64,000 bases of DNA, taken from positions 212,970,001 to 213,034,000 of the forward strand of contig OZ024743.1 of the NCBI GenBank assembly GCA_964016885.1. The letters are read 5' to 3'. Each line of letters begins with the position of its first letter. The stretch's first letter is position 1. Of the stretch, positions 6,756 through 48,936 are shown piece after piece. Below the pieces are notes generated by a model that did not search any database, was not told where the DNA came from, and saw only the letters and a program-made list of their open reading frames with translations. This DNA comes from Eledone cirrhosa. Taxonomy: Eukaryota. The translations under genes and the position numbers were made by a program.

Positions 6756-6831
6756 TTAACCTTTCACTGCAGTCATTCCAGGCTGTGATGATACTGGTTC
6801 TCTTCCTTCAAGCTGTTTGCCAAGGTATTCC
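6756..6831 (-). CDS. ATP6V1H: ATP6V1H terminal coding exon 14 ([24 protein letters not shown])
   Basis: ttcag acceptor, WEYLGKQL across the junction, TAA at 6756-6758. An AATAAA lies at 6722-6727 (minus). Confidence 0.95.
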
Positions 6832-6844
6832 CTGAAAATTAGAT

Positions 6845-6875
<31 letters not shown>

Positions 6876-9800
6876 TCAGTAATAACATTTCTAGGATAGG
6901 CTCAATGACACAAATTTGAGGAAGGGGTATTTGAACTTGCTCATAAAGAGAAATAACTAAATACTGTCTTCTTGCTCAACTGATTTTGCTCTTATAACAA
7001 TAAAGTAAATAAAACAAGTTTTTTAATATCATAGAGATCACTGTATGAAACACTAGAGAGCTTATCTCACTTCATGACTGAACCTTCCTATTGTTAATCA
7101 ATCAACTATGAATCATGAACAGGAGAAGGAGAGCCCTGCACTTGGTTCAGAGAAGAGAGCTGTGTACTTGGCTGAGGGAGGAAGAATCATGTGTCTGGGT
7201 CAAGGAAGAACTAAAAGTGTAGCAGTCTTGTGTCTGGCTAATGAGTTTCTGGTTCAGGGAGGAAGTGAGAGAGACAAAGACGAGTTGTTATTTGCCTAGC
7301 TCTAGAAGGTAATCTGAGAGGAGATGTGAATCTGGTTAAGAACAAAACTGGCAAGCAAGGGGTAGAGTGAGTCATGCACCTCACTCATTGAAGAGATTCT
7401 TACAAGTGACTCAGAGGAGAAGGTAAGAGAGCTGTGCTCATATTAGGGGAAGCAGAGAGTACATTGAAGTAACTATCGTGGAGTCACAACACAATAGTAA
7501 TAGTAAATAACAAAAACTTTGGAGCATGTGGTCTGTATTACTCCAGCACAGTTACTGTTTCATATAGGCACTGCATATGGTCACTTACTCTGTGTACCTG
7601 GTTTAGGATAGGTACACCATATCCTGCATGTTGTAAAGAGGAGACTAAAAGGGTCCAGTATCAGAAAGGGCATCAGGTCATAAAACATTGTCTCAACCCC
7701 ACCTCCCTCCATGATGAGTATGATTAAACCTTGAACAGGGCTCACAAGGCTAACTCGTACTTTAGAAGGGAAAATGGTCTTAAAATGCTTGTTGTACATG
7801 GCCATCTTAATTCAGATAATAAATAAATATATAGAGTTCTCTTGCTTCATTACTTACCAGTTATGTACCATCAGTTTTTGGACTGCTATGAGGGCTTCAT
7901 AGCGAACATTTGGATCTTCATGTGTGAGGTATTGCATCACAAGTTGTTTGGCACCAAGTTTTTCAATCACACTGAAAAAAAAAAGCCCAAAAACCACAGA
8001 AATGTTACAATTAAAAAAAAAAAAAATACATGTAAAAACAGTGATGAAGATGAAATAAAGCTTATTTCAAGGGAATGGATGAGAAAGTAGGATTTGGAGT
8101 TTGATTTTGCCATATTTCTAATAAAGGCCACTGCTTATGATTTTCAAATAATATCGAAAAAGAAGTTTGAAGGATTTATTAATATAATTGGTTTTCTCAT
8201 TTTGAAGCTGGTGTTTGGAACATAGCTTAAAGGTTTTTAATTAAGATGGAAGGTGTTTAGATAAATATAAACTCTTTAAAACAGTCATGTATTGTAAAAC
8301 TAAGAGTGGTTTGATATTAAAGGGGTTAATTGACTGTATACAACACGACTGCTGATCTAAATGAAGGTAAAAAAATTTGTGGCTGATTTGCCAAGGCAAG
8401 AAATTATCTTTATGTCATTCAGCTGAATAACTAATACACCCTACCACTAATCTTGTACAGATTCTAAACTTCTGAACAAATAATTCTCCCGAAGACAGAC
8501 TTTTTTTGTATATCACTGTACAAGGGTAGACCGAAAAGTTCATAGGTTGACTATGAAGGAGTGATGCTAAAGCTGTGAAATCTTGCATGCATTAATTTCA
8601 ACTCTTCTTATTAATAACAGTAATCAAGCAGGGCTACTGAATTCCCAGACAAGCTGAGGAGTCTGTATCCCACCTACGTATGGTCATATCAAGTACAGAG
8701 ATGTGTCTTTTGACACAAACTAAAAGGTCCTCCTAACCCCTTGTTTGGCAAACTTTCTACGGTTGGATGCTCTTCCTGTCACCAACCACTTTGCGGCATG
8801 TACTGGGTGCTTTTATTGTGTAGATCACCAGCACGAGGGAGGCTGTCACGTCCTTGATACAACTAAAGGGTCCTCGCAATTCTTTGTTTGGTAAGCTTTA
8901 TACAGCTGGATGCCTTTCCTAACACCAACCACTTTAAAATGTGTACTGGTTGCCTTTAATGTGTAGATCACCAGCACTAGGGAGGCTGTCATGTCCTTGA
9001 CACAACTATTAATAAATCAATTGTCTGAAATAATAACTTACTTCTTCCCTCGAGGGTAGTAGCGCACGTATTCACCAAAGTCATGAGCTGCTACAGAGAG
9101 AATAAGTGGATCCTTGCTGCTTTCAAGTAATCGAACTAAGATTCTAGATAAGAAGAAATGAGATATCATTGGAAACAGAAACAAATACAAATATTACATC
9201 TGAAAATAATTTTAGTAAAAAAATATATATTTACAATTGTCATAGTAAAAGTACTAATTAGTAATAAAACACTATTACTAATTAGTACGATCTGGATTGT
9301 GGCATTGATTAATCAAATATTCTTGAGCATATTTTCGTCATTTCTGCTAAGCTCAGGACAGCACACCACGTTTATAAAAATTTTGTTTTACAAAACAGCA
9401 CAGTAGATAAGGCCATTAGAGACAAAAGACTAGCATGGAAGGCTTGGAAAAAGGGTGGGAGTAGGGAAGAATATACAGCCACTAAGAGAGAAGCTAGACG
9501 TCAAGTGTACTTAGCACGCAGGGAGGCTGAGAGTAGGAGGTTTGCCAATGTTCTGCGACGGGAAGATCAGAGGCGTGCGGTGTTCCACATTGCAAGGCAG
9601 TGTGTCAATGCAAATCAGGATGTTGTTGGAGATAAATGTGTCCGGGATGATGCCGGTGTACTTAGTGTCACGAATGATCAGAAAAAGGAGGCCTGGAAAT
9701 GTCATTATGAGAGACTGATGAATGTGGAGAACGAATGGGAGAGAGAGAAATTACCCTTAGTAGATCCAACAGAGGGACCAGCTATTGAGATTGACGAATA

Positions 9801-12800
9801 TAGGGTTAAAGAGGCGATTAGGGAAATGAAAAATGGTAAGGCTGCTAGACCATCGGGAATAGTTACTGAGATGCTGAAGGCATCAGGGGACGTAGGCACT
9901 AAACTGGTTGCATGCATCATCAATCAGGCTATATATGGTGGTGTCACACTCAAAGACTGGTGCAGCAGTATTCTCATAAATTGCTACAAAGGTAAAGGGG
10001 ATGCTCTGGAGAGGAGCAATTATAGGGGTATAAAACTGATGGATCAGGTTATGAAAGTGGCAGAAAGGATATTAGCACAACTAATTAGAGAAAGGATCAA
10101 ACTAGATGAGATGCAGTTTAGTTTTGTGCCTGGGAAGAGTACAACAGATGCCCTCTTCTTGGTGAGACAATTGCAAGGAGGTTCTTAGAGAAAAATAAGC
10201 CACTATACTTAGCCTTTGTTGACCTAGAGAAGGCCTTTGATAGGGTACCCCGATCTGTCATCTGGTGGTCCCTAAGGAAACTATGTGTTGAGGAATGGCT
10301 TGTGAGGACAGTGCAAACTTTGTACAGAGGTACTCTCAGTAAAGTCAGGGTAGGGATGGAGTTTAGTGAGGAATTCCAGATACAAGTAGGAGTACATCAA
10401 GGTTTGGTCCTCAGCCCGCTCTTGTTCATTATAGTCCTCCAAGCCATAACAGAGGAGTTTAAGACTGGCTGTCCATGGGAACTTCTCTATGCTGACGATC
10501 TGGTTCTTATAGCAGAATCAGTAGAGGAGCTAGAGAATAAATTCTGGCTATGGAAAGAGCAGTTGGAAGCCAGAGGACTGAGAGTGAGCCTAGCTAAGAC
10601 AAAAGTGTTGAGTAGAAAAGAGGACAAAACCCCGATTCCGTCAGGGAAATGGCCATGTTCGGTATGCAGAAAAGGAACTGGCATAAATTCTATAAATTGC
10701 ACACAATGCAGATCCTGGGTACACAAGAGATGTAGCGGGATAGCAAGCAAACTAACAGGTAGGGAGAAATATGTATGCAGTAGATGTACAGGGAAATTAG
10801 ACAGTAGAAGTCGCATTGATAGACACATTTTTCAGATGCAGGAGGGTGCTATAGAAGTGGTGGATAGCTTCCGGTACCTAGGAGATCAAATTAGCATGGG
10901 AGGAGGGTGTTCCGAGGCCATAGTATCTAGAATAAGGATGGGTTGGAAGAAGTTTAAGGAGCTGCTTCCTCTGTTGACGAAGAAGGGTTTCTCCCTGCGT
11001 ACGAAAGGCCGGTTGTATGATGCCTGTGTGAGGAGCGCGATGCTGCATGGTAGTGAGACATGGGCAGCAACTGCAGAGGATATGCAACGGCTGGAGAGAA
11101 ATGAAGCAAGCATGCTCCGTTAGATGTGCAGTGTAAATGTGCGTGAACGACCCAGCATAAATGTGTTGAGAGAGAAACTGTGTCTGAGAAGGATAGAATG
11201 TAGTGTACGGGAGAGGAGACTGAAGTGGTATGGACATGTGATGCGCATGGAGGATGACCGATGGGTGAAGAAGTGCCAGTTGAAGGAAGACGTGGTAGAG
11301 GTAGACCACGAAAAACATGGGCGGAGGTGGTGAGAACAGACCTCAGATCATTGAAGCTCACGGTGGAGATGACGAAGGACCGTGACGAGTGGAAAGATGC
11401 TGTGCTGAATAAGACCCGTCCCACCCTTGCAAGCAGGGAAAAGCGGACGTAAAATGATGATGATGATGATTGATGCAAGAGCTGTGAAATCTTGCATGCA
11501 TTAATTTTAACTCTTATTAATAACTGCATTGTTTCTTTCCAGGGACTATATTGAAATATAAATCTCATTTGGTCATTCCATGAGAGTATCTTGGTCAGCC
11601 AATGAATTTTTTCAGCCAACCCTTGTATGTATGTTTAAGCTGATCATCATCCACAAGCCTGGATGGCCTATAAAAGGTAATGACCAGTGGTTATCTCCAG
11701 ATTAACTCATAATAAAAGAAAAAAAAAATCATTGGGTGTTTTTCCAATTATGTGTCAAAGGTATTGTTGAACCTTTGATTCATTGATTTATGTTTACTAA
11801 AACAAACATTTGGATCACAACTGATTTAGAGGTTTCTGACATAATTAGCAGACAATATATGCATGACTAAGACACATACAGATACACACAACATACTTAC
11901 TTAAGAAGCTCATAGTTCTTTTCATTCAATCTCATAGCATTTTCTCGCCAGAAACGGTCAGATCTGTGCACAGGACTCCATTCAAGTCGGCCAGATTTTA
12001 CTTCATTAGAATATTCATCAAATGAACTGAAAATATAAATATATAAAAGTAAATCAACAGGATGAATTTAATTAAAGTTGTTGTTGTTTAACACCGGGTC
12101 AGAATAAACTTAGCGCTTACATTCTTCCAGAAAGTCTATCTAAGAATGTATTATTCAATATTTTGCTTCAAGAATACTTGCGATGTCAGTTTCACTCAAA
12201 ATTTGTAAATCTCAAATTACATATCTTTCTTTTCAGTTTCACAAACTTTATATATAGCCGAATGAAGCAAGTTAGAAGCATGTTATATTATCATCATCAC
12301 CGTTTAATGTCTGATTATATATATGTATATATCAAGCAGGGAAAAGCAGACGTATGATGATGATATATTAATTCCATAATATACAAAATAAAGAAACAGG
12401 AGTTTATACCTCAAGTCTTGGACAGAAGCTAACAATTTCTCTTGCAAGTACTTCAAGTCATCTTCAAACTCTGGGTCTTCATTCTTGCGGGCCTCAATTA
12501 ACTCCAACTGTTTCAGTACTTTACACTGCACCATAGCCAAAGCGTGTTCTTGAATGACATCGGTCTCACTAGTTTTCTCTAGAAGGTTCTGATAGCAAAC
12601 AATCAAGAAAATTTAGTATGACATGATGAAAATCTAGGTCTAGTTGATTGAATTGATGTTAAAAATTGAGTGATACTTACTGGGGAAGAGTTTAAAACCA
12701 AAATATAAAGAGAACTTAACTAAATAACAAATGTGATAGTTACGCCATAACAAAATTTAATAAATTCAGCTACTCCTACTAGAATCATTTTGTGTGCAAA

Positions 12801-15800
12801 GATGCAACGTTTTTAGACTCAAAAGATGTGAAAATATATATTAAAAAGATGCTGTTGAATAATCAACAAACCTGTTTCTGGTAAAACCTACCATTTTTAG
12901 TAACATTAAAAAATATTTCAAAATTTATAAATAAAATAAAAAATGACTTTGCATAAAGTGCTCCTTTTACAAGTGGTCATGAAAAGGATGATAGTTTTTT
13001 ACTATAAGCCTTCCTGAAGGTCTCACTAGCCTCATTAGTGCATTTCAATAATGAACTACTTCATTCTATTAAGAACTTTTTATTCTCTTCTTAGTAAATA
13101 TTGTACCATACTTTTTTCTTTCATGCCTCTTTTTTATATTTCAACTTTAAACACGGCTAGTGAAATAAATGAAAAGAAAAAAATTTTTTTTATCAATCCT
13201 GGAAATATAAATGGCAAAGGTGATCTCAAAGGAGTATGAAATCCATAATGCAAAGGAATTCAAATAAAAACCACAATCTATTCAACAGTTAATGGTCATG
13301 TTGGTGTCATGACAAAAAGACTCAGTCCACACTGTAGAGTGGTCGTGTCACAACAAAAAGCACCTAGTACACACTGTAAATGTGGTTGGTGTTAGGAAGG
13401 GTATCCAGCTGTAAAAACCAAGCCAAAATCACTTCTGTATGAGCAGTTATCTTATCTGGCTTGTCTCAAAGGGACAACTTGTCAAACCCATGCTAGCATG
13501 GAAAAATGGATGTTAAATGGTGATGATGATGATGAGGATGATGATGTATTACTAATTCAGTAATCAGCCATCCTTTAAAATAACAACAGTAACTACTACT
13601 TACTCGGAAAGTTGATAAAATAATTCTGCTGACTTTCTCTTTAACTGATTCACTGAGAATATCAGACAAAATTTCAATGATATTATATCTGAAGAAGAAA
13701 AAGAAACATGGATTCATAAACATCATTGCTGGTCTTATAATAAAAAGTTCTCCATTATTTGAATGTAATTGCAGTACACTAGGGATAATCTGTGGAGTAC
13801 AATTTTAATATACAATTTTATTTCAGATTTTGTTTTGTATTTTATAGACCAATCAGTGTGTGAAGTGCAATGCTGCATGGTAGTGAAACATGGGCTGTGA
13901 CTGCCGAGGACATATGTAGACTGGAGAGAAATGAAGCAACCATGCTTCGTTAGATGTGCAATGTAAGTGTGAGAGAAAGGCAGAGCTTGGATGAGCTGAG
14001 GGAGAAGATGGGTTTAAAGGGAATCTGATGTGGTGTGCAGGAGAGAAAGCTGTGTTGATACGGGCATGTGAAGTGCATGGATGATGATCGCTGGGTAAAG
14101 AAGTGCCAGGAAATCCTAGTGGAAGGAAGCTACAGTAGAGGTAGATCAAGAAAGACCTGGGCAGAGGTGGTGAGAGCTGATCTCTGATCGCTGAGACTCA
14201 CTCAGAGAGGAGATGATGAAGGAACGTGACAAATGGAGAGATGCAGTGTTGAAAAGGACCCACCTAACCCATGTGAGCATAGAAGAACTGACTAAAGGAT
14301 GATGAGGACATCATCATCATCATCGTTTAACGTCCCTGTTCCACGCTTGCATGGGTTTGGACGGGGGTTTTCCCACATGAGGCAAGAGTGGTTGTCTTGC
14401 TCGCATAGGACTGTCTGGCGTGTTTTCTACAGCTGGATGCCCTTCCTAACACCAACCACATTTACAGTGGGGCTGGGATGTTTTTACCGTGTTGCCTACA
14501 CGGCCACATTACAGCATGGACTGTCTGGCGTGTTTTCTACAGCTGGATGCCCTTCCTAACACCAACCACATTTACAGTGTGGGACTGGGAGGTTTTTACC
14601 GTGTTGCCTACATGGCCACATTACAGCGTGGACTGTGTGTTTTTTGTCGTGACACCTACACGACCTCGTTTGTTTCGGCCTGGATGTTGTGGCACCAACA
14701 TAACTTTGCATTGAAGGGGGCGGTGTGGATGGGGTGGGACGGGGTGTATTTTGTTAGAGATGCCTACTGACTAGTAGGTTTTACTTTGTATTTAGGTAAG
14801 GCGGGTCTTCTCTGTTACTGAGTACCGCCAAAGGTCTCGGTCCAGTGACATTGTCTTGGAGAGGTGTAAGTGTGTGAGGTCGGAATTTATCAGCTCGTCC
14901 CAGGTTTTCCTGGGTCTGCCTACTCCGTGGCTACCATCTATCTTTATTGCCCTGCACTTTGTTATACAGCTGTCGTCTTTCATGCGCATCACGTGACCGT
15001 ACCAACGTAGCCTTCTCTCGAGTAAACAACATCTGATCCTTCTTATTTCTAATTTTTTCCTTAGTTCGTTTATGCTTTGCCGTTAACGTATATTACTATT
15101 ACACATCCAGCGGAGCATGCAAGCTTCGTTCCTCTCTAGTCTGCATATATCCTCTGCACACAATGCCCAGGTCTCACTGCCATGCAACATTGCTGTTCGT
15201 ATGCAGGCATCATACAACCTGCCTTTCATTTTTAGGGAGAACCCTTTAGCGGCTAATAGTGGTATAAGCTCTCTGAACTTTTTCCATCCAGTTCTGACTC
15301 TAGCTACTGTACTTTCAGAGCACCCTGCCCCACTGCTGATTTTGTCACCCAGGTAACGGAAGCTGTCCACTATTTCTATAGAACCCTCTGCGCAATTGAA
15401 AGAGTATTTTGTGGGCACTTGCTGCTACTTATTGCACCAGAGCACCGGCCACATGTAAAATCTGTGTTCTTAGTTAGCTTACCTGTGATCCCACTACATC
15501 TTTTATGCACCCATACTTTGCATTTGGGACATAAAATGGAGTTTCTACCTACGCCTTTCCTACACACTGAGCATGGCCATTTCCCGGAGGAGACCGGCGC
15601 CTTATTTTCTTTCCTACAAACTAGAACTTTAGTCTTAGCCAGGTTAATTTTAAGGCCTTTTGATTCTAGGCCGTGCTTCCATGTTTGGAATTTCTTCTCT
15701 AGCACGGCCATTGATTCAGCTATGAGCGTTAGATCATCTGCGTATAGGAGTTCCCATGGGCAGCCGGTCTTGAACTCCTCTGTTATAGCCTGAAGGGCAA

Positions 15801-18004
15801 TAATAAATAGTAGGGGGCTAAGAACAGAGCCCTGATGGACACCAACTTTTACGCTAAACTCTTCACTATATTCGTTGTTAATTCTAACCTTGCTGACTGT
15901 TTCTTTATACATGGCTTGTATGGCTCTCACAAGCCATTCGTCAACACCTAGTTTTCTAAGAGCCCACCAGATAATGGAACGGGGGACTCTGTCGAAGGCT
16001 TTCTCCAAGTCGACAAAAGCTAAGTATAGGGGTTTACTTTTAGCTAGGTACTTCTGTAGTTGTCGTACAATGAAAAGAGCGTCTGTGGTACTTTTGCCTG
16101 ACACAAACCCGAACTGCATTTCATCTAGATCAATTCTCTCTCTGATTAGTTGCGCTATTACTTTTTCCGTGACCTTCATGACCTGGTCGATTAATTTAAT
16201 GCCTCTATAGTTACTCCTATCTAGGGCGTCTCCTTTACCCTTGTAACAGTTAACGATGATGCTGCTACGCCAGTCCTTCGGAACAACCCAATTCTGTATG
16301 ACTTGGTTTACTATCCGGGTGACCATGGTGTGTCCCACCGTACCGGAGGCTTTCAGCATCTCAGCAACTATTTCTGAAGGCCCAGCCGCCTTACCCGTCT
16401 TCATATCTTTGATTGCCTTACTTATTATACTACCTTCGACTAACACTGCTGGTCCCTCTATTGGGTCGATGTGGGGGAGACTGTCTTTCTCCCATTTATT
16501 CTCCTCATTTAGTAGCCTTTCGTAGTGACACTTCCAAGCTACCTTCTTATTAGCGTCAGTGATGGCAAGTACACCATCATCGTTAAGTACACACTTCTCC
16601 CCGACAATATCACGGTTTTCCTTGACACATTGCCTAGCAATCCTGAACACCTCACGTTTTTGGTCCTCGCATTATAGAAAATGCTTGAACTTTCTTTCCT
16701 CTGCTTCCCTTCTTGCAAAGTACACTTGTCTCCTAGCTTCCCTCCTGGCCACTTGATAGTCTTCTCTACTTCCCCCATCCCGCCATGCTTTCCAAGCCTG
16801 CTTTTTGGCCTTGATTGACCCCTCCACCTTACTGTTCCACCACCATGTTACTCTCCTCCTGCCTACAGGCCTGCTCCAGCCACAGACTTCGTCTGCCGCC
16901 ATCAGCAGGTTTGCTTTCAGGAATTCCCACTGTTCCTCTACCTTGTACGACTCTAATTGCTCTTCCTTACTGTCGAAATCATCAAGTAATATGCTTTGAA
17001 ATTTATTTCTGGCTGTGGGATACTTTAGCTTCCATATTTTTCTCCTGAGGATAGTCCTCTTCTGCTGTCTAGTACGTCTCGTCCTGACTATGAGGTCGCT
17101 AATTATCAGTCTATGTTGGGAGGTGCATTCTTCATGGGGGAGGGATTTAGTGTTTACAACAGACACTCTGTCACGTCTTCTGGTAAGGATATGTAGTAAG
17201 ACGCCTCACGCTCCTTGATAGAACAACGCCGGTTAGGAACGCCAGAAAGAAAAGACAGACAGCCACTGAAAAGCCGACTGATCACACGCAAGAAACCAGC
17301 CTCTGTACAACAACATTGTTGGTGCTACATCAAAAAATAAACGTATATTTCATCTCTAATTTCTGCTGTTGAAATAATTATTATGTCACTCGTATCTCGA
17401 TAACATCTATAACTAATACTGCTAAAGTGGTGACCGACGTAAGAATTTAACGCAACCCTTCTTTTTCACGTTGCCGGCCTTTTTTCGCAACTTGTGAAAA
17501 TAAAAAATATTCCTTTTAAAATTATCGAAAAATTAGTAGTATTTCAAAAAACTTTTTGCTACACTCGACAACAACAACGACAGCAGCAGCAGCGACAACA
17601 TTGTTTAACCACTGACCAAAACAGGGAATAGTGAGTGGCAGCTTCATAGCCTTACCGACGCAAACCACCACACATCGGAAATATCAAAACGATTCATTTG
17701 TGTCGATAATTTAGAGCAACTTTTTTTTTATTCACTTGAATATTCCATTTCCGTTGCCAACTTTTTCGCAACTTACAGAAGAAAAAAGAAAAAAGTGTAT
17801 TTTTCCAAGGTGGCGTTGCGTTCCTTCCCAGTTTTGAAACGGACACATTTTTTGAATTGCGTGTGTGTTCCATGACTGATCAAGAGAGAAGAGACTAAAC
17901 TTTTTTTGTGAACATAACTGCCCCGCATGGGGATATACATGCCTTACTTTTTTCTAAGGGATTTTTAGCCACTGGCTACCTTTGTTGATATCCAACGCGG
18001 ATAT

Positions 18005-18035
<31 letters not shown>

Positions 18036-21000
18036 CAAACATTTTTTTTTCTTCCTCTTTTTTACCTTATTTGATTTGGCTGGTTCGTTGAAGCAACGCG
18101 AGGGGACAGACGTTGAAGGAAAATTTTTTTTTTAAAAGATATATATCTGTATTTTATGTATTTTGCATATTTCCTTATGTTTTGAATGTTTCTTTTTGCC
18201 ATTTAACTTTTTCTCAATATTGGCTGTTCTCTTTTTACTGTACAAGGGTACATTAATTGCTCTTTAGATATATAGGTATATATATTTGTTTTAATTTTAA
18301 AAGTTGACATGAATGTACCACATTTGCCCGCCTTTACTGGAAAACCTAAGATGTGGTTTGCCCAGTTACAGGCGTATTTTACGGTCTGTAAGACCGAATC
18401 TGACCAGCGCCTCGCTGTACTGATTAGCGGCCTTCCCCCTAATCTAGCAGATTCGGTCCAAGACCTAATTACAGACCCCCCCCCCTCTGACTTGACGTAT
18501 GAGTTTTTGAAGGGCGAGATTTTGAGGAGGAATTGTAAGTCGGTAGAGAGTCGTTTTCGGTCACTGATCGAGGACGAACGATTAGGTGACAGGACCCCTA
18601 CCGCTTTGCTCCGGCATTTGCGGGATTTGAGCGATTCCCAAGATCAGGATAGCCCTTTCCTGAAGCAATTGTTCTTCTCTCGCCTACCTCAAGAGGTACA
18701 GGCGATCCTAGCCCATATGCTAGAGGTGAATACCCTGGATCACATTGCTGTCTCTGCTGACAAAATTGTAGAGGTGACGAAGAGAGACACTTCGAAGCCA
18801 AAGTACGTTGCTTCCTCTTCTCTTCCTCAATCACGCTCATCAGCGTCTGATGACAAATTAATCACCACTATGGAAGCCATGACTCGTCAAATGGCGGAGT
18901 TGTGCACGGAATTCAGGTCCTTTGGACGGCAGAGGAGCCGCTCACGACGTTATTCAACTTCTCGCCACCGTAGCCCTTCCAACACACCAGGAACACCATA
19001 TTGTTATTACCATGAAAGATATGGTAAAAAAGCCGCCCGTTGTAGGCCTCCTTGTGCTTACGAGGGAAAAGACGACCAGAGTCACTAACGGTGGATAGTG
19101 CGCTCTGCGAAACAACATCTAACCGCCACTTTTTCATTGAGGACCTGCTGTCCGGTAGAGCTTTTCTGGTTGACACAGGTGCAGCTTGTTCTGTATGGCC
19201 TGTGTGTTGTATGAAGGAGACTCCCCCTGAGACGCCTATTGAGTTGCAGGCAGTAAATTGTTCGCCGATTCGAACTTTCGGACAAATCTCGTTACCTTTG
19301 CAGTTTCGTAATCTGCAGCGTGAGTTTAAATGGATATTTACTGTCGCTGCCTTGCCGTATCCGATTCTAGGCGCGGATTTTCTCCACCATTTTTCATTGA
19401 CGGTGGACCTTCGTGGTAAACGCCTTATTGATGGCATCACGGGATTAACTGTTGTTGGCAAGGCAGCAGGAGTTCCAACGGTTAGCCCGACATTTTTTCT
19501 TGCTAACACCGGTGATCCTTTCCATGCGTTGTTGAACTCGTTCCCGCAACTGACACAGGGGAATTTTCGATTTGATGAACCTACTCATACCACGGAGCAC
19601 TTCATATCTACAACTGGTGCTCCCGTTTCCTTTCGTCCTCGTCGCTTGCCTCCGGACAAACTCAAAGCAGCACGATCAGAATTTGATCATATGCTGCAAA
19701 TGGGGATTATTCGTCCGTCCACGAGCCCGTGGGCATCCCCATTACACATGGTACCGAAAGCGAATGGCGATTGGAGACCTACTGGAGATTATCGACGCCT
19801 GAATTCGATAACGGTACCGGACCGTTATCCTATCCCTCATCTGCAAGACTTTGCGTCTTCGTTGCAGGGATGCAAGATATTCTCCAAACTGGATTTAATT
19901 CGTGCGTACCATCAAATTCCTGTCCATAAAAATGACATTCCAAAAACGGCTATAGTTACGCCATTTGGGTCTTTCGAGTTTTTGACTATGCCGTTCGGAT
20001 TAAGGAATGCCGCTAGTACTTTTCAGCGGTTTATGGATGAGGTTACTCGCGGCCTCGATTTCGTCTATACCTATATTGACGATCTGCTCATTGCTAGTTC
20101 TTCTCCAGAGCAGCATACGCACCATTTGAATCTTCTTTTCCGCCGATTGAAGGCGTATAACGTGCAGCTTAATGCACCCAAATGTGTTTTTGGTGCTGAG
20201 TCACTGACTTTCTTGGGTCACATCATCGATGCTGACGGTATTCGACCCCGGCCTGAGCGAGTTAAGGTTATAGAGGATTTGCCTCCACCGACCTCACTAC
20301 GTCAGTTACGCCAGTTCTTAGGTCTGGTTAACTTTTATAGGCGTTTCGTGCCAAATTGTGCAAAATTGCTTTTCTCCCTGACAGAAATTTTGAAAAATTG
20401 TCGGAGGAAGAACAAAGATATTTCTTTGACAGACACTCAACTTGCTGATTTTCAGCACGCCAAAACCGTTTTGGCTAATGCTTCGTTACTGACTCACCCG
20501 GTACCCGGTGCAAAGCTAACGCCTTGTGTTGATGCATCGGATATCGCTGTGGGCGCAGTACTACAGCAAAACATCAATGGTTACCAGCAACCGCTGGAGT
20601 TTTTTTCCAAAAAGCTAAATCCTGTTGAGACGCACTACAGCACCTTTGGAAGAGAGCTTTTAGCCATCTATTTGGCCGTGAAACATTTTTCACATGTGCT
20701 AGAGGGTAGGCAATTTACTATCCTCACTGACCATAAACCATTGACTTTTGCTTTGAGAGCGAAGGCTGATAAATACTCGCCCAGAGAGACGAGACACCTT
20801 GATTTCATCTCGCAATATACGAGTGATATCCAGCACATTCCGGGTTCACTAAATACAGCGGCCGATGCTTTGTCCTGCTTACCCGTGACAGCGATCTCGT
20901 CATCCTCTGACATAGATCTGACTCGTTTGGCTGCGGATCAGCCTCCCCTTGAGTCATTGGATGTCACATCGCCCGAGTTTGCGAATTGCGAGATGAAATA

Positions 21001-22325
21001 CTTGCCTCTGTCGACTGCAGTTGGCCAAATTCTCTGCGACGTCTCCTTGGACGTGCCTAGGCCCTTCGTTCCAGAGAATCATCGTCGGACCGTGTTTCTG
21101 GGATTACATTGTATCTCGCATCCAGGATCTTCTGCCACAGCAAAGCTCATAACAGCTAGATTTTTCTGGCCAAATATGAGGCGTGAAATTGCTGCCTGGT
21201 GCCGTTCCTGCGTCGCTTGCCAGAGATCAAAGGTCCATCGACACGTCAAGGCTCCCCTGGGTACCTTTGCTAACCCAGATGCGCGTTTTTCACATATTCA
21301 TATTGACATAGTGGGACCTTGGCCTGTCAGCGATGGTTTTTCTTATCTACTTACCGTCATTGACTGTTTTTCGAGATGGCCTGAGGCCATCCCCTTGAAA
21401 AACATCACCACGGAGACAACAGCACGTGCTCTTGTGTCTGGATGGATCTCTCGTTATGGAGTTCCATCCACAATAACTACCGACCGTGGACGACAGTTCG
21501 AGTCGAGCCTTTTCCTTGAGCTGTCAAAATTAATTGGTGCTAAACGCATTAGAACTACGGCATACCATCCCGCTTCGAATGGTATGGTGGAGCGCTTTCA
21601 CCGCCAACTGAAGGCCTCCTTAATGGCCTCAATGGACTCGGCGCATTGGAGCGAGTACCTCCCTATTGTGCTACTAGGGATTTGGTCAACAGTGAAGGTT
21701 GACTCTGGATTTTCACCGGCCGAAGTACTGTACGGTGCCCCTCTGACGTTGCCCGGGCAAATACTTGCCCCTATCGATCTTGATGCCCAAGATCACGCTT
21801 CCTACGTGTCCCGTTTGCGCTCCTATTTCCAGGATTTGCCGCCAATGGACACTAGGAAACAAACTGTCAAGACTGCTGTCCCGAGGGATATTGCCTCGTG
21901 GACGCATGTCTTTGTAAGGAATGATACGGTGAAGCCCCCGCTCACACAGCCTTACACTGGACCTTACCGTGTCTTAGCGCGCTCGGCTAAGCATTTCACG
22001 TTAGATATTAAGGGGTCCAGGGAGACAGTTACAATAGACAGGCTTGAGCAGGCTCACCTTGACACGGACGCTGTGGTTCCTGATCCACGAACCCCTTCGT
22101 ATTTGCCTGTTGAGCGAACGCCTGTTCCTGAACCACCATCATCGCCTGTCCCTACACCACCACCATCGCCACGTTACAAGACCACGACCCTTTCAGGTCG
22201 TAGGGTCCACTGGCCCAAAAAATTTTGCAGCACCGTTTATATTTAGACTATGTTAGCTGCACCTTTTTTTTGCCTCTGTGTTTCTGCTTTTTCTTTGCCT
22301 TGTTTTTTTTATGCATGCATGTCGG

Positions 22326-22360
<35 letters not shown>

Positions 22361-25300
22361 TCAAATCCTTAATCTGGATTCAATTTTTGCTAGAGCGGAT
22401 AGCTCCCCCTTGTTGCATTGTTCACCATCTTACTCCACATGTGAGTAATGACATCGATTTTCGATAATTTGAAAATCTGGCTCGAGGTACTGTAGTAAGA
22501 CGCCTCACGCTCCTTGATAGAACAACGCCGGTTAGGAACGCCAGAAATAAAAGACAGACAGCCACTGAAAAGCCGACTGATCACACGCAAGAAACCAGCC
22601 TCTGTACAACAACATTGTTGGTGCTACATCAAAAAATAAACGTATATTTCATCTCTAATTTCTGCTGTTGAAATAATTATTATGTCACTCGTATCTCGAT
22701 AACATCTATAACTAATACTGCTGTCTAGTACGTCTCGTCCTGACTATGAGGTCGCTAATTATCAGTCTATGTTGGGAGGTGCATTCTTCATGGGGGAGGG
22801 ATTTAGTGTTTACGACAGACACTCTGTCACGTCTTCTGGTAAGGATATAATCTACCTGGCTGGTATGTTCTCCTGATCTGTAGGTGATCAAGTGATTGTC
22901 TCGTTTTTTGAAGATAGTTAGGTTGTTTGCATCACAGAATTCCAGGATTCTGGAGCCTTCCTCGTTTCTAGTACCAAACCCATAGCCTCCGTGGATTCCG
23001 TCATAGCCGTCACAATGTTGTCCAACGTGACCATTTAGGTCGCCAGCAATAATTATATAGTCACTGTCGGTTATTTGGGAGGTAGTGAGCATCAGTGTTT
23101 CATAGAATCTGTCTTTTATAGCGCCAGGCAGTCCGGATTGGGGCGCGTATGCAGATATTACTGTCACAGTAGTTCTGTTTAGAACAAGTCTTATTTTAAT
23201 TATTCTGTCATTCACTATTTACATCTATTATCTTATCCACCCATTTTTCTGCTAACATGATTCCTACCCCACCTATCCCATTGTCATTCCCCACCCAGAA
23301 AAGCTTATAGCAACGTTTTTTACCCACAATGAATCTAGCAGACCTGCCCCTCCACCTGGTCTCTTGGATACAGCAAACATCAACCTCCTTACGTTCAAGC
23401 AATTCTACAACCTCGTTAGAGCGGCCTTTTAAGGTGCCTACGTTCATGGTACCAACTCTGAAGTTTTGGATTGTGTTTGGAGGATGGGGCGCAGGGAGGG
23501 GTGAGGGGAATGAGTTTGGGGTTATGTTGGCCATCCGTGACCGAAACAAAGAGGGGGGGGGGGCCTTGCCCCTTCGTCAATGAAGCAATATCTTGTTCTA
23601 CCAAACAATCACTAAGATGGTGGCTAGCGCATGGCAAATTTGCAAAAATGGTTCAAAGTGTAACTTTGATTCAAACTTCAACTACTTTGCTACACTGTTA
23701 CTCCTTATCCCTGCCATATTTGATCATAATTAGGCCATTTGGAGAGATATTGGTTAAAATGTCCATGAAAGACTAAATGGATGTTACATGGGAAAAAATA
23801 ATTCTAGAGATATCCTAATTAAACATTAAAAGTTCGCACATGTCCATACTACAATCACATTACATTTAATATGATTATACTTTAAAAATCATCATGATTA
23901 TTATCTCTCATATTTAAATTAATTGTTTCTACTTTAGGCACAAGGCCAGCAATTACCCAGTGCATTACTGGTACTTTATTTTATCGACCCCGTAAGGATG
24001 AAAGGCAAAGTCAACCTCGGCGGGATTTGAACTCAGATCGTAAATTAATGATGTCTTTTATGACATTAGAGAGAGTTCTTGATGTCGTTGGTTATAGAAT
24101 AAGAAACTGTGTAGAGATAATTGTAGGTAATAAAGAATTTAACATTGGGAGGGAGAGAGAAACTAGAATTGACTGGGGTGAGAATGATAATAATCCACCT
24201 ACTTGTTCATTTTCTCCACAAGTTTTGGGCTGAATGACAAAGACCAGAGACAGAAAATTAGTTGGTACTGGATTTGGAACCCAACTTTGCTTCCAGCCAG
24301 AACAGTGACAATACTGGAAATAAAGTGAATGGTAACAGCATCATTATGACAGTAAGATTGTAAGAGCATCCAAACCTACGAAGGAGGATACTCACTTGAA
24401 ATGGAACACATTCAGAAGGAGGCTCCCCCTCCTACCCATAATTTCAAAACTACTTACGTTGAAATGCCATCAACATCAACAAAAGCTTTTCTGTATATTT
24501 CAATTCTGAGCATCATTTGAAGACAACGAGCTGCAGTCTGTAGATATTCATTGTTCTGAATGTACAAAATAAAAAAAAATTTATAAAACAAAAGCCACAA
24601 GTCAATAGAAACAAACATATTAAAATCATCATCATCACCGTTTTATGTCAATTTTTCCATGCTAGCATGGTTTAGACAAGATGTCCTGTTGTGGGCAATG
24701 CCAGGTCAGGTAACGATGTCTTGCTCATACAGAACTGAGCAATACATGGTCACCTGAGCTGGCATTGCTCACAACAGAACAACTCATCTAACCCATGCTA
24801 GCGTGGAAAAATGGATGTATATACATCATCATTTTAATGGAGCATGCTTGTGAACTAACTTTATATTAATGGGATGAGTGGCCTTTCTCTGGATGTGGTT
24901 GAGGATGTTTGTGTGTGTGTAGTAGTAATACCATCCCAGATATGGGAGTAGTACTCCATTGTGGGTATCACCTGAGTTTTGGAGTTGTTGGGTGCTGAAG
25001 TATTTCATGGCTCTGAAAAGAAGGGGCAGTCTTTACTATGTTAACAATGTGAGATGAGAGATTCTCGGTGATAGTGGCGTAAAGCATTTGGAGAGATTGC
25101 AAGGGCCTTAGTCATGTGGTGATATGTAATTATGTTTTGATATGAGCAGTGTATGTGTCTTTTCTGCTGTTGGAGAAAACAAGATTAGCATGATCCCATT
25201 GAAGAATGCTTTTGAAGGTTCTGTTATTGGCGTCAGTTCAATATTTAGTGTGAATTTACATATGGATGATGCTTGGCTGTGGAAGGCTAGAGGAATGAAG

Positions 25301-28300
25301 TAGATGTCATCTGTGTAAGAATGAGAATTGTTGGAGGTGATGGTAAGTAGATCATTGATGTATATGTGTAAGAGTGTGACAGATATAACTGACCTCTTCT
25401 TGATGGTGCAATTTGACAGGAAATTATTGACCTCAAAGATGAGGGAGGGATGGAGTCCATGGGATGGTGATAAATAAGACAAGTACAAAAGATTTTTTTA
25501 AAAAATGTACAAAATAAATCTTTTCCAAAAAAGGTAACAGGCTTTACAAGTGAGAATCTGTAAATTAAACTGCAATAACCAACAGATGTTCCAAATAGAT
25601 TACCATCTACTTACAGGGAGTTTAAGTTGATCCTTTAACCAATTGAGATAAAATTCTAAGTCACTTTTATCCATTGGTTCTTTACCCCAACAAGCAATTT
25701 TGGCAATAATTCTGCTGGTCTACAAAAAATATAAATAGATGTACATCAATTAGGCTCCTTTTCATAGCAAAAAAACAGGTATATATTATGTAGAAAATTC
25801 TATCCATAAATAAGTAAAATCCTTTAATTATGCCATAATGATGCTCATGGAATTTATATGGAATTTACCAAATTTGATAACAATTTCAACATTTTTAGCC
25901 ATTGTCTGCAGGAATGCTTTTGCAGTCTTGTCTGCAGGGCTCAGCTCCTCTACTGCCACACCCTAGGCCCAGACCTCAATCATCCTCCCCCCCCCCCCTC
26001 CCCATTCTTCTGTGACACTAGAGTCCTTGCGATTTCCTTCCCTTCCCGTTTTTTCTTTCTTATTCTCTTTTTTCTCTATATTTTCCTATTTTACATTCCA
26101 TTCTTCCCAATCTAAATTAAAAAAAAAAATTTTTTTCTATTAAACTGTATTACCATGATATATTCCAAAATTAAGACACGATATTTCAGAAGAAAAATGA
26201 GACTTGTGTTCTATTGTGAAACATTAATGAACTGAAGTAACTAAGGAGTAGAATTTTTGTTGTAATAGCAATGACTTTTGTTGAGGCAGCTGACTCATCT
26301 CATTTCGAATGTTTTCTAATTCTCCACCAAACCACAATTAACAGGTGATGTAGCTTATTGTGACAACTAACAGAGACTGTCCATTTCTTAACAGACTTTA
26401 CTGTCAAATGGCTCAATCTGTCTAGCTTTAAATAGCCAGTCAGGTAGGAACAACACAGTTATACCTAGTGGTAGTAGTGTTAAAATTAATGAGTATTTTG
26501 TTCAGTTGTAGAATCAGTCAAGATTCATAGTTTAGAACGTATACACACAGCAAGAGGCACAGCTCAGTTGCTGCTGTGCCATCATGCTGTATTTCAATGG
26601 CCAAATAACCTAATGGTGCCTATCTCCTCTAAATGTATGGCTGGTTATTGACTTCTCTGTTAGAGACTCTTCCACCTTTTGACAGGTTTTATTTTTAATC
26701 CTGATGGGTCTCACATATACTTCTTACCTGGGTGGGGTTGATAGTTCAATCACTGACCACTTGACCATGAGGCAAATTGCACTGGGTTATGCAGTCCAAG
26801 TAACATGTAGAATTGTGTTTAAAATCTCCTAAGTTTATAACAAGGAAAGATAGCTCCAATAAGACAAAGCTTTATAGCAGTACATCACCACTGAAAGCCT
26901 GAAAGTAATACTTTAATGTGGTTGTTATTAACTGTTTTGGAGATTAAGAGTACAAGTATAAATGCCTCAAACATTTCTGATGACCCTTATGGTGTGTAAC
27001 CAATTGACGCATTTGGTATTGAATTGATGGGTTTTTTTCTCTCTCGCTTTGATTATATATTTTTGTTTATTATATTTATAAGGTTCCTAGCAATTAATTG
27101 TATATATTATGTGTTTATATTTTCATTCTGTAAGAATTATAAACAATTTGTATCGTTATCTATACAACAGTGAAAGAAATGTTTAAAGTATAAAATAATT
27201 ATGAAAAATCAGATGAAAAACTGCTCACCTGGTTAACTATGAATCGATCACTCCTATTCAGAAGGTGTAGGAAAGGGGTCCAAACCGATTCCCTGTTTTT
27301 GCGAGCATAATCTCTGAAGATCTCAACATAGGATTTATCCTCCTGGAATGCAGAGCATTACAATTTATTCATTGTCATATTAACAACAAAACAACAATTT
27401 ATTACATTGGCAAATCAAATAGGTTTAATTTACAAAAGAAGTACTTGACACAAATTACACTATTTCAGAACTAAGTCATATATGAATGACTGGTATCACA
27501 TCAAGGAAGGAGATTTCTTTCCTTTGTTTAATACATTTTCTCCATAAAAGAGGAATATGAGCCCCCTCTCCCCCAACAAAAAAATTCAATGGTGGAAGGT
27601 GGGTCGACATATTTAGGGTCAATATTTTGATGATTTTCACCAACTTCAAATTCTATGTAAATAAGGTTTGGATTTTTGCCCATTTCTCAGACATAAAATA
27701 ATTGTTTCTACTTTAGGCACAAGGCCAGCAATTATCCAGTGCATTACTGGTACTTTATTTTATCTACCCCGTAAGGATGAAAGGCAAAGTCAACCTCGGC
27801 GGGATTTGAACTCAGATCGTAAAGGGACGTAACTATGCTGGAAAGCATGGCGTCCGACCCTCTAAAATAATGGAGTTGACTTGTATTCATATTGTTTCCA
27901 TTGGTCTTTCCATTTCTAATACTATCTACCAGTCGCAACTCCTGGCAGAAAGAACAACATAAAATAAAGTGTCTTGCTCAAGAACATAATGCATTGTCAG
28001 GTTCGGGAATTGAACTCGCAACATTACAATTGCGAATCCAATTCTGTGACCACTAAACCACACATTATATGTTATATAAATTATATATATAACTTTTAAT
28101 TATAATAAAAAAAAAAAAAAAAGAGAAATTATAATAAAAATAGGATTACCTTCAGAATGTCATCAGCAACAGTGAGAATATATTGTAAGGTTTGATCTCT
28201 GGCAATGTGATTCATTAAATTTATAAAGGTTTCAGCAAACTGTAAATATAAAACAGAGATAATAGGGAGTTTTTTTAATAGATAATTTTCACTAATTAAA

Positions 28301-31300
28301 TTTCCTTTAGTTCTTGTCAAAGCAGACCGATGAACAATGGGATTCCAGTTGTGACTGTGTTTTATTTTTTTTATACCAGACTATATTTTTCAATGTGCCT
28401 TGCCTTTTTTTAAGACATAGAAAGCAATTTGAGGGACCATGTCATTGTCCTGTAACACAAGAGTTATTTTCACCTCTTGACACATCCATCACAAAAGCCC
28501 TGTAAAAGTTATAGTTGCTGCCCTTCCTCATCTTACTAAGCTATAAAAATCTAAAGCATGCTCATATTTATTGTTTTATGTTTATCTCTCCATGATGGTA
28601 TGAGTTGGATGGGTCTTTCAGTTCTTTCTTATCTAACATACAATAAAGAGAGAACCACCAATCTTTGTGGTTTTCATTTGATTAAGCCTTTCATTCCCAT
28701 ATTTTTTATGAAAGACACTTCCTTTGATTTTCAATTAACCACAAATTTTGAAGCATTTGAAGTATAACTAACTAGCTGGTGATAGAAACATAACTTAACA
28801 AATATTCTTACATAAAATTACAATGCTAAGTTTTTAGACAAATATAATCACTTTAAAACAAGCTTTATATGAAATTCTCTTTATTATAGTAATTTAGATA
28901 CATAGATAGATTTAGAATGTTTAGTGAAACATACAGAAAAAGAGATCCGCATTGGAAAGGACTATACATGCCATAAATAAGAGGAAAAGGAGGGAACGAG
29001 CAAGGACTATTAGGCAATGGAAGAAAGAAAGGGGAGAAGGGGAACACCAGAAGTGGTTTCAGGTGGTTTGGTATTAAAAGGGTTAAAAATATAAATAAAA
29101 TGTATGTAAAATGGAAACAAAGTTGTATACCTGCATAGGTGTTTCAGCTAACATCCGTTTCTTGACCTCAATGTTATTTTGGTCAAATTTTGAGACAAAC
29201 ATGTAATCTTCTTGAGAGATCATCTGGCCCCTAAATTCAGAGAAAAAATTAAATTATAAATGACTATAACTATGAGAGTGGAGGTGCATAGCCAGTCCTG
29301 CTTATTTGTCCTATATTTCATTCACACATAATTTTGAGTTGCAGAAATGTTAACTATAATAAAGAAAGGAGTGCGGGACTGCATCCAGAATATATTTTTT
29401 TACCCCGTTTGTAAAATAAGTTGGATTACTTTGAATAAATAATGAATGAATATTACATAATTTATGTGCTAAATTTCGTGGTTGTTGATTAAATATATTA
29501 ATTTTCTCCTAATGGAGTTTATATATAATATCGTCTTTTTTTAATGTATCATGGATTACATTACTGATTACATAAGACAGTGTAACACAGTCTTCGTTCA
29601 ATTTCTGTGTATATTGTCAATTACGATTTTATTTGATGTATCATATCAACATATATATATATATATTTGTGTATAATATCAATATCCAGACTACACATGC
29701 TAGCTGAAAACCACCCGAAGGGTGGTTTTTCTGCTAGTCAACTGAAATAACTGTTTCAAATTTTTCAGTGGGAACAGTATCCAGGTAAAAGAGTGTGTGC
29801 GTGTATTTTCAATAAAAATGACTGACTTATTTGAAATATAAGTATAGAAGCTAAAGAGAGAAAAAAGAGGTACTTACTGAAGGTAACATTGCCAGTTAAT
29901 ACGATTAGCTCTGATATCATTAGCATGTCTCTGTAGAGTACTAGTGGCAGTTTGAGCACCTAAAAGAAAAAAAAAAAACAATCATCATGATAATCAATTG
30001 TTGAAATTTACAATCAACATCATTTCTTGCTGCTCTCATGGACTGTGAGAAGATTGGTTCATATATCCCTGTACACTGCTATCAAAGTGGAAATGCTGCT
30101 TGCAGGTGCGAGCCCCTGTGATGTGGAGTGGCTGTTCCAGCATGTCTCCCTCACTGTCCTTCTAGGCAATGTTTTCTCCATCTTGTCAGCCGGGACCACA
30201 AGGTAGACAACATATTAAGGTAGGAGTAGGGTGGCAGTCTTCAGATTAAAGGGTTAATAATTGTTTCTACTTTTGGCACAAGGCCAGCAATTACCCCAGT
30301 GCATTATTTTATCGACCCCGTAAGGGTGAAAGGCAAAGCTAACCTCAGCAGGATTTGAACTCGGAACATAAAGGGCCACCACTATGTATCTCCATAAACC
30401 ATGTTTTATTAGAATCCCAAAATATCCAACAAGGGAACCTCTATATGGCCACTCAACCTGCTACACATAGCCAAATCTCTTGTATTGTTTTGAAAAAGGA
30501 AGGACACATTGAATGTGGTTCTGGATACAGTAACCTTGACTTCAAAATAAACAGCAACATTAACAAAAAAGAAAAAGCCAAGAAAAACATGAGTCTAAGG
30601 AAACCAAATATTAGTTTGATGAATGTTAGGATTTTTGAACCAGCACAAACATTCGAACATTACATATACAACAGTCTGTTAGGGCTAGGAAGTTTGACAG
30701 CTGACATCTATAATGTCTTCATATTTTGGCCTACTCCACCAGTCTTTCTAAAGCCTGTCTCAAACTCAGACTCCTCAGTCCAGTGCTTATCCTGGTTTCT
30801 GTGGCATTAAGTGACGGAGAGTATAAGATTCTCCCTGGACAGGACGCCAGTCCATTGCTGTGTTAAACCCCCAGCTACTGTTGCTGGTACTCATTTTCAG
30901 CTGAATATACTGGAGCAATGTGAAATAAAGCATTTTACTTTTACTCAAGAACACAACACACAAATCCAGGAATTGAACCTATGATATTATCATCATATGT
31001 CCAACACACTTACCATTAGGGAATGTACCTCCATGCACCAGTCTTTAACTACAATTAAATGCAAATAATACTGAAAGGGCAACACACATTGCTAGGAATA
31101 TTTGTTTTACAAGTTAGAAAGATTATCTTTCACAGGCCTCCCAAGACTGAGATTGAGCAAATTGTTCAGCCTAAACCTCCCTAGGTCAATGTTTGTCGGA
31201 AAAATATTCTCTGTCTATAGTTGAATGTCATTCCTAATGACATGTCATCATCATCATCATCGTTTAACGTCCATGTTCCATGCTTGCATGGGTTTGGACG

Positions 31301-37148: not shown

Positions 37149-37222
<74 letters not shown>

Positions 37223-43700: not shown

Positions 43701-44650
43701 TTTCATTATTTGTTTTTTTATTCACCATTGTCATTTTAACAGTTTCAGCCAGAGAGATATTTATACATGAGTTAATCTCTCTCTGGAAGATTTCGTTGAT
43801 GGAAATTTTCAATTGTTTATACTTTTTATTATCATTATCGATAGTATTTTCCACAACAGTCGAGGTAGACTCGGATGGTATACGTGGTGTCACATTTATT
43901 CGATTATTATTATTATTTCTTCGATTATTATTATGAAAGGCAAAGTCAACCTCAAATCCCGCCGAGGTTGACTTTGCCTTTCATCCTTACGGGGTCGATA
44001 AAATAAAGTACCAGTAATGCACTGGATAATTGCTGGCCTTGTGCCTAAAGGAGAAACAATTATTATTATTATCGATAGTGTTTTCCCCAGCATTCGAGGT
44101 AGACTTAGATAGTACAGGTGGTGTCAAGTTTCTTACAGGCATAGTTGTTTCAAGGCGCTGTTCGACCTGGCTGCTAGGAAGTCTAGTAGCATGGCGATCT
44201 GTAGCACGTGTTGTTGATTCCATGTTTGTTGTGGGGGACTTACAATTAATAAAATCATTATTAAGTTCGCAACTCCAAGAGAAATGCGATTTATAATTTC
44301 GGTTTCTTCTGTAGCTACAACTGAATAAAGTTTGATTACCTTCTTTGTTATTTGTCTTCGATACTTCCTTAATTTTCTTGTTGATGTTGTGTTCAACCAT
44401 GCTGTTTGTAGCAAATCCTTGTAAAATGAATTATGTATTTAGTCGGATATCTCTACGAATTCGAATAAAAGGTGTCTTCAGAAGGGATAGTTAGAAGAAT
44501 AACCAGTTATTCAACCTGGCTGTAGTTGTGGCATTACTGTCGGAGATAGTATTCATCTTAAATTTAATAAATAGTCTCCCACTCCAAAATATGCGACTGA
44601 TCGCGTTGACTGATATGTATGTTTTCTCTTTCTCTTAATTTCGAGTATAT
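40751..44650 (-). mobile_element. R4/Dong-like non-LTR retrotransposon A (RT + CCHC + REL endonuclease), frameshifted
   Basis: YRPIACQN, GIFQGDS, FFVDDLKLY, CRLC..H...C, RHD, PD..VVEISCP. SINE inserted at ~43935-44065. Confidence 0.88.
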
Positions 44651-44654
44651 TTTT

Positions 44655-47415: not shown

Positions 47416-47516
47416 TGTGTATGTATGTATGTATGTATGTATGTATGTATGTATGTATGTATGTATGTATGTATGTATGTATGTATGTATGTATGTATGT
47501 ATGTATGTATGTATGT

Positions 47517-48075: not shown

Positions 48076-48152
48076 GTATGTATGTATGTATGTATGTATG
48101 TATGTATGTATGTATGTATGTATGTATGTATGTATGTATGTATGTATGTATG

Positions 48153-48762: not shown

Positions 48763-48936
48763 TATGTATGTATGTATGTATGTATGCATGTATGCATGTA
48801 TGCATGCATGTATGCATGCATGTATGTATGTATGCATATATGCATGCATGTAAGTATGTATGTATGTATGTATGTATGTATGTATGTATGTATGTATGTA
48901 TGTATGTATGTATGTATGTATGTATGTATGCCTGTG

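What the first reader, a model, noticed from the sequence alone, without database searches (positions are those of the whole stretch)
17062..22847. Gypsy insertion with a non-CA U5 end and a ~125-130 bp flanking duplication: apparent natural one-ended integration
Seen: instead of a 4-6 bp TSD, host RTE sequence 17062-17191 is repeated at 22718-22847 (one mismatch). The left junction is a clean TG start. The right LTR stops at ...ACTGCT and joins the host through a 5-bp microhomology (CTGCT). The internal copy of the same LTR end reads ACTGCTAAA-G-TGG where ...CTACA would be expected as the inverted partner of TGTAG. Established: U5 of both new LTRs is copied from one template, integrase needs the terminal CA, and retroviral DNAs with one defective end give large duplications or deletions with microhomology at that end. 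Inference: the parent carried a CA>AA change, integrase joined only the U3 end, and host repair fixed the other.
Basis: partly seen in the sequence, partly recalled or inferred. Interest (0 to 1): 0.75.

Follow-up and report, generated by a model that had tools for sequence, protein, structure and literature searches.

The report
Jumping gene inserted by one end
A retrotransposon in a mollusc intron is flanked by a 130-base host duplication instead of the usual 4 bases, most likely because only one end was joined by its own enzyme and the cell patched the other; this is a known accident, and the 'mutated end' blamed for it is probably normal for this group.

Summary
The structure is real: host RTE-LINE 17062-17191 recurs at 22718-22847 (1 mismatch); the left junction is a clean TG; the 3' LTR lacks the last 3 nt and joins the host through CTGCT. 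Chance of 5-nt microhomology is about 0.3%. The element matches the CsRn1 clade of Gypsy (CHCC gag, tRNA-Trp-type PBS, -1 frame, no env). So AA is probably the normal U5 end, not a lesion. One-ended integration with host microhomology-primed repair at U5 remains the best mechanism (~0.68), trigger unknown. The same outcome is known for ASLV, HIV, XMRV (1 of 15) and natural HERV-K. Family members, empty allele and reads could not be checked. Verdict: new example of a known accident; interest 0.3.

The parts
14954..17191 (-). Host RTE-type LINE, RT-bearing part left of the insertion (decayed, with stops)
   Evidence: RVT_1 + PHD in 15379-16671; 68% to a second copy at 9433-11276
17062..17191 (+). 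Left copy of the 130-bp duplicated host segment (begins CTGCT)
17192..17426 (+). 5' LTR, 235 bp, TGTAG...CTAAA; AATAAA at 17336; the U3 junction is clean (1-nt ambiguity)
   Evidence: the right end is placed by the 1-nt spacer before the PBS, as in L001 and L004
17428..17440 (+). Primer-binding site of tRNA-Trp type, two bases shorter than in relatives L001/L004
   Evidence: clade PBS in PMC2582038
18309..19088 (+). gag, 259 aa, DUF7041 and CHCC motif CX2HX9CX3C at aa 232-249
19046..22246 (+). pol PR-RT-RH-IN, 1066 aa open, -1 frame to gag, catalytic motifs and GPY present, no env
22479..22490 (+). Polypurine-tract position; purine-poor compared with L001/L004
22491..22722 (+). 3' LTR, 232 bp, lacking the last 3 nt of the 5' LTR (3-8 nt given the microhomology)
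22718..22722 (+). CTGCT microhomology shared by LTR end and host
22718..22847 (+). Right copy of the duplicated host segment, continuing into unduplicated RTE
22848..23576 (-). Host RTE-type LINE, endonuclease part right of the insertion
   Evidence: Exo_endo_phos hits; 138 relatives
6759..38438 (-). Host V-ATPase subunit H gene; RTE and Gypsy lie in the intron between exons near 24.2 kb and 13.7 kb; exons collinear across the insertion

Best explanation
A CsRn1-clade Gypsy cDNA was joined by integrase at its U3 end only (clean TG junction at 17192). That leaves the host top strand intact and the U5 end free. The free U5 end lost its last few bases, paired through CTGCT with host DNA 125 bp upstream of the cut, and host polymerase copied through, duplicating the segment (either priming on the empty sister after replication, or annealing to a host strand extended from the nick). 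The AAA end is probably the family's normal U5 end, so the failure was stochastic or due to a weak parent or enzyme, not to a lost CA. Shown: the anatomy, the microhomology, non-CA ends being integrase-competent in relatives. Inferred: the order of events, the repair route, and that this family ends in AAA.
For: Clean U3 junction; U5 trimmed by only 3-8 nt. A later random break would land within 4 nt of the cDNA end with p about 0.0007 over the element, 0.017 over one LTR. 5-nt microhomology p = 0.0034; the site used is one of only two 5-nt matches within 150 bp on the left for trims up to 5 nt, and none exists within 300 bp on the right, which explains duplication rather than deletion. LTR divergence 1/232 and duplication divergence 1/125 are compatible with one event (Fisher p = 1). 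The structure needs an uninterrupted host template, which a one-strand join supplies itself (inference). It matches the model in PMC5041404 Discussion: truncated end, short homology, duplication on one side, and an XMRV provirus with a 273-bp duplication and 5-bp end loss, 1 of 15. AgCR13 lost the 3' LTR end and TSD, 1 of 14.
Against: One locus in one assembly; no reads, empty allele or family copies were available. The final sequence cannot separate repair at integration from later repair off an empty homologue. The age agreement rests on two mismatches (95% CI 0.07-2.0%). The relatives fetched are only 47-48% identical and end TA, not AA. PMC3601003 also says in its text that the CsRN1 model has TG...CA, so CA ends occur in the clade.
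Confidence: 0.68

Rival explanations
1. One reading: the family ends in CA, the parent had mutated to AA, and that is why integrase joined only U3.
For: U5 differs from the inverted U3 end at the C of CA. CA ends exist in the clade (AMA). The copy has other oddities: short PBS, purine-poor PPT, 17 departures at 291 near-invariant pol columns against a median of 3 in 120 relatives. Mutated ends do cause such proviruses in ASLV (as summarised in PMC5041404).
Against: AAA/ATA ends with 4-bp TSDs are described as the rule for PwRn1 and AgCR1-14. 4 of 4 full-length relatives end TTA with 4-bp TSDs, and a fifth copy and L004 also end TTA. A C>A transversion at one given site is a priori rare.
Confidence: 0.08
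2. Normal insertion first, then rearrangement: a break at the 3' LTR end repaired off the empty homologue at CTGCT, or unequal exchange between two insertions about 130 bp apart (pseudo-TSD).
For: Gives the same final sequence. Pseudo-TSD models are discussed for HERV-K.
Against: Needs a break within a few bases of the LTR end (p 0.0007-0.017). The two-insertion version predicts a complete LTR end plus 4-bp TSD on the right, which is absent, and no target preference is reported for the clade.
Confidence: 0.12
3. Assembly artefact: a switch from the filled to the empty haplotype at the LTR end.
For: The join sits at a repeat boundary inside another repeat; the one mismatch in the duplication could be an allelic SNP.
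Against: No N in the window, 4 kb of gag-pol without frameshift, host exons collinear; a 5-nt overlap is far below what assemblers join on (general knowledge).
Confidence: 0.08
4. The host already had a 130-bp tandem duplication and the element landed at its junction.
For: Would explain the long repeat without special repair.
Against: No short TSD, trimmed LTR end and LTR-host microhomology are all unexplained; none of 120 RTE relatives has the segment twice; insertion exactly at the junction is improbable.
Confidence: 0.02

Closest known systems
CsRn1 clade of Ty3/Gypsy LTR retrotransposons (CsRn1, Kabuki, Boudicca, PwRn1, AgCR1-14)
   Same: CHCC gag motif, tRNA-Trp-type PBS, PR-RT-RH-IN with GPY, -1 frame, no env, TGT...AAA ends, 5.5 kb, short LTRs. 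Clade reported in 9 of 12 cephalopods.
   Different: 130-bp flanking duplication instead of a 4-bp TSD; trimmed 3' LTR; PBS two bases short and PPT purine-poor compared with L001/L004.
Aberrant one-ended retroviral integrations (ASLV end mutants, HIV under integrase inhibitors or weak integrase, XMRV clone C-3)
   Same: One exact end; other end truncated, with short homology and a long host duplication.
   Different: Here an env-less invertebrate retrotransposon in a genome assembly, and no damaged end is needed to explain it.
HERV-K(HML-2) loci with long TSDs (PMC5488345)
   Same: Natural inherited insertions with 61-450 bp near-identical flanking repeats; 8 loci over 10 bp among 451 estimated TSDs; empty alleles shown for the 111- and 250-bp cases.
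   Different: Primate retrovirus; the parts I read do not analyse junction microhomology or invoke one-ended integration.

Membership tests
CsRn1 clade | Gag CX2HX9CX3C (CHCC) motif | tested here: met
   aa 232-249 of gag; definition in PMC2582038
CsRn1 clade | PBS complementary to tRNA-Trp | tested here: inconclusive
   First 8 nt match the PBS of L001/L004 and the published motif, then two bases shorter; no host tRNA to compare (0 tRNA in window)
CsRn1 clade | PR-RT-RH-IN order, GPY/F motif, no env or chromodomain | tested here: met
   no ORF of 90 aa or more between pol and the 3' LTR
CsRn1 clade | LTR termini TGT...AAA/ATA (consensus AMA) | tested here: met
   5' LTR TGTAG...CTAAA
CsRn1 clade | 4-bp TSD | tested here: not met
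   No 3-7 bp TSD; this is the anomaly of this copy, so membership is held as probable, not proven
CsRn1 clade | Groups with named CsRn1/Kabuki/Boudicca in an RT-RH-IN tree | not testable with these tools
   No named reference sequences; no tree built. Named hits are mostly tapeworm and fluke pol proteins at 49-53%; Spirometra pol proteins are mostly CsRn1 clade, 59 of 81
Saci-2 clade | Gag CCCH motif and TGT...ACA ends | tested here: not met
   gag has CHCC; Saci-2 features
One-ended (uncoordinated) integration products | One exact end | tested here: met
   U3 junction at 17192
One-ended (uncoordinated) integration products | Other end trimmed, with short homology, and long host duplication or deletion | tested here: met
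One-ended (uncoordinated) integration products | Pre-integration allele has one copy and no normal-TSD precursor allele exists | not testable with these tools
   No genome, reads or other individuals; only indirect support from RTE relatives
One-ended (uncoordinated) integration products | Failed end is a defective integrase substrate | tested here: inconclusive
   Non-CA ends work in relatives; own family not available

The most novel reading that the evidence does not exclude
CsRn1-clade elements have naturally asymmetric ends (CA at U3, AA or TA at U5). If their integrase joins the non-CA end less reliably, the whole clade would produce U5-polarised failed integrations at an elevated rate and act as a recurring source of local host duplications and deletions in invertebrate germ lines. 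This locus and AgCR13 (3' LTR end and TSD lost, 1 of 14) would be the first two examples; TSD-dependent annotation tools would systematically miss them.
Probability: 0.15. Interest if true: 0.6.

Novelty: new member of a known kind. Interest (0 to 1): 0.3.

Why it matters
It is a tidy natural example, outside vertebrate retroviruses, of an integration accident worked out in cell culture, and my searches did not show a Gypsy case with both junctions dissected; that library lacks most subscription papers, so this is weak. As a single copy in an old LINE inside an intron it changes little. It would matter more if aberrant junctions prove U5-biased across the CsRn1 clade, since that would link a relaxed integrase end rule to genome rearrangement.

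Tried and rejected
CA>AA lesion as cause: rejected as unnecessary. LTR ending at TG...CT with an integrase-made right join: considered because TGCT is in LTR_retriever's motif list; rejected since the 1-nt spacer geometry of relatives puts the end at AAA and the 5-nt host match would be chance. Tandem duplication or circle of host segment plus LTR made after insertion: gives the wrong order of parts or leaves a TSD or extra LTR. Translocation between two RTE loci: host exons are collinear. Other family copies in the window: none; self-BLAST of 14500-25000 found only the two LTRs, and 17 other ORFs scanned gave non-LTR RT/endonuclease, V-ATPase or no hit. tRNA scan found nothing. Protein search found no relative above 63% identity. 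L004 has no TSD to test. 'Decayed parent' was tested but is unresolved: 17 departures versus 1.9 expected from ageing (6.7 at the upper bound), yet no stop codon (P 0.04-0.12), and some residues may be family-specific. The Culex paper gave nothing on termini. No tree, structure or complex prediction was run; none bears on the question.

Full report
OBSERVATION. Window 17062-17192 matches 22718-22848 over 131 nt with one mismatch (17158 A / 22814 G); the last base is the T that the host shares with the LTR's TG, so the duplication is 130 bp, 125 bp of it outside the microhomology. The LTRs begin TGTAG at 17192 and 22491 and agree over 232 nt with one mismatch. The 5' LTR continues AAA, a 1-nt spacer, and the PBS at 17428; the 3' LTR instead passes into host DNA through CTGCT (22718-22722). 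No 3-7 bp TSD fits. In 27,874 simulated joins of a U5 end trimmed by 0-6 nt to 4 kb of flanking host, 0.34% had 5 nt or more of microhomology.

SETTING. The target is a decayed minus-strand RTE-type LINE (endonuclease right of the insertion, RT left). Of 120 RTE relatives, 106 match the duplicated 43-aa segment once, 14 not at all, none twice, and in 108 testable relatives the two host halves project as contiguous, the commonest offsets being -1 and 0. So the duplication is local. LINE and element lie in an intron of a V-ATPase subunit H gene whose exons run in order from 38438 to 6759, which argues against a translocation. The best named matches to one exon are molluscs (77% and 72%); a cephalopod is my inference from recalled repeat content, not a tool result.

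THE ELEMENT. gag (18309-19088) has DUF7041 and the motif CX2HX9CX3C; pol (19046-22246, -1 frame) has PR, RT, RNase H and integrase with catalytic motifs and GPY, and there is no env. These are the features given for the CsRn1 clade in PMC2582038 (passages and Results part 1 of 2 read; its alignment of termini is an image supplement that I did not see and that bears on how many elements end AAA). No tree with named references could be built, so membership is probable, not proven.

IS AA A LESION? Probably not. (a) PMC2582038 states that in PwRn1 and AgCR1-14 the termini are TGT...AAA or TGT...ATA and all TSDs are 4 bp. (b) PMC3601003 (passages, including Table 3) gives the CsRN1 3' motif as MSYYAMA, i.e. 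ACA or AAA; against my reading, its text lists CsRN1 among TG...CA models. (c) A scan of genome contigs returned 5 loci from 20 candidate stretches, in MAG records but evidently eukaryotic contamination (inference). Four (L001, L002, L003, L005) are full-length copies of one family, 47-48% identical to the window's pol, with DUF7041, a CHCC-like motif and a tRNA-Trp-type PBS. All 4 start TGTAG, end CTTTA, and have exact 4-bp TSDs (ACAT, AGAC, ACAG, GGAG). A fifth partial copy and L004 also end TTA, without testable TSDs. Non-CA U5 ends are thus normal integrase substrates in this group. Limits: these relatives are distant and end TA; the window's own family was not available.

MECHANISM. Shown: exact U3 junction, U5 short by 3-8 nt, 5-nt microhomology, duplication on the U3 side. 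Inferred: integrase joined U3 to one host strand; the other strand stayed whole; the free U5 end paired at CTGCT 125 bp upstream and host synthesis completed the join. For trims up to 5 nt only two 5-nt matches exist within 150 bp to the left and none within 300 bp to the right, consistent with a local homology search ending in a duplication. A later random break would fall within 4 nt of the cDNA end with probability 0.0007 to 0.017, and would need the empty homologue as template. LTR and duplication divergences (1/232, 1/125) are compatible with one event but rest on two mismatches. Why U5 failed is open: chance; a weak parent (PBS two bases shorter and PPT purine-poor compared with L001/L004; 17 departures at 291 near-invariant pol columns, 10 in integrase, reached by only 3 of 120 relatives); or lower reliability of non-CA ends. 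The weak-parent idea is not secure: ageing alone could give up to about 7 departures, and the frames have no stop. PMC5041404 reports that reduced integrase activity alone yields such products (passages and Discussion read).

RIVALS.

COMPARISON WITH WHAT IS KNOWN. It works like aberrant retroviral integration: one exact end, one truncated end with short homology, long duplication (PMC5041404; the ASLV work of Oh et al. is known to me only through that paper). It also occurs without drugs or engineered ends: 1 of 15 XMRV proviruses had a 273-bp duplication with a 5-bp end deletion (PMC2857682, passages and one Results section). Inherited natural cases exist: 8 HERV-K loci with repeats over 10 bp among 451 estimated TSDs, two with empty alleles confirmed (PMC5488345, parts 1-3 of 4 read; supplements not opened). 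In the CsRn1 clade, AgCR13 lacks the 3' LTR end and TSD (1 of 14). Passages only were seen of PMC12471100, PMC6238403, PMC8220671, PMC3286476 and PMC10742618. Listings from searches showed no dissected Gypsy case, which is weak evidence given the library.

VERDICT. Real feature; probable one-ended integration of a CsRn1-clade Gypsy; the headline cause is not supported. New member of a known kind, interest 0.3. Boldest reading not excluded: naturally asymmetric ends make this clade prone to U5-sided failures (probability 0.15, interest 0.6). For: this locus and AgCR13. Against: 4 of 4 fetched relatives, PwRn1 and 13 of 14 AgCR representatives are normal, though the published ones were verified by finding a TSD, so that sample is biased towards normal.

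Noticed in passing
window 6759-38438 (-): V-ATPase subunit H gene with about 13 exon matches; the RTE and Gypsy sit in one ~10.5 kb intron, Gypsy antisense to the gene.
   Followed up: partly
window 17428-17440 and 22479-22490: PBS two bases shorter and PPT purine-poor compared with relatives L001/L004; family trait or decay unknown.
   Followed up: partly
window 19046-22246: pol is open but departs at 17 of 291 near-invariant columns (relatives' median 3), more than the LTR age suggests.
   Followed up: partly
L001 4568-8876, L002 4568-8876, L003 2222-6530, L005 4567-8886: Young Gypsy family (142-bp LTRs, TG...TA ends, 4-bp TSDs, one 1307-aa frame in L001) inside contigs of a MAG labelled Rubritalea: apparent eukaryotic contamination of a bacterial genome record.
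   Followed up: partly
L004 2849-3020: LTR shared between a pol and a following PBS plus gag-like frame (tandem elements), U5 ending TTA; MAG labelled Lysinibacter.
   Followed up: no
window 9433-11276 vs 14954-16797: Two RTE copies in inverted orientation, 68% identical, both with a PHD-like cysteine-rich stretch after RT.
   Followed up: no
window 23920-24044 and copies near 27682, 30258, 35818, 43952, 56089, 57680, 60865: Short interspersed repeat of 110-140 bp, 83-100% identical, one pair 100% over 125 bp; SINE-like.
   Followed up: no
window 24648-24815: 168-bp imperfect palindrome (83%), with partial copies near 11450, 13450 and 31250; MITE-like.
   Followed up: no
window 41091-52337: Further decayed non-LTR retrotransposons and three (TGTA)n tracts at 47418, 48074 and 48760, spaced about 650-690 bp apart.
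   Followed up: no
window 62821-63017: 16-bp tandem repeat, about 12 copies, 78% matches.
   Followed up: no
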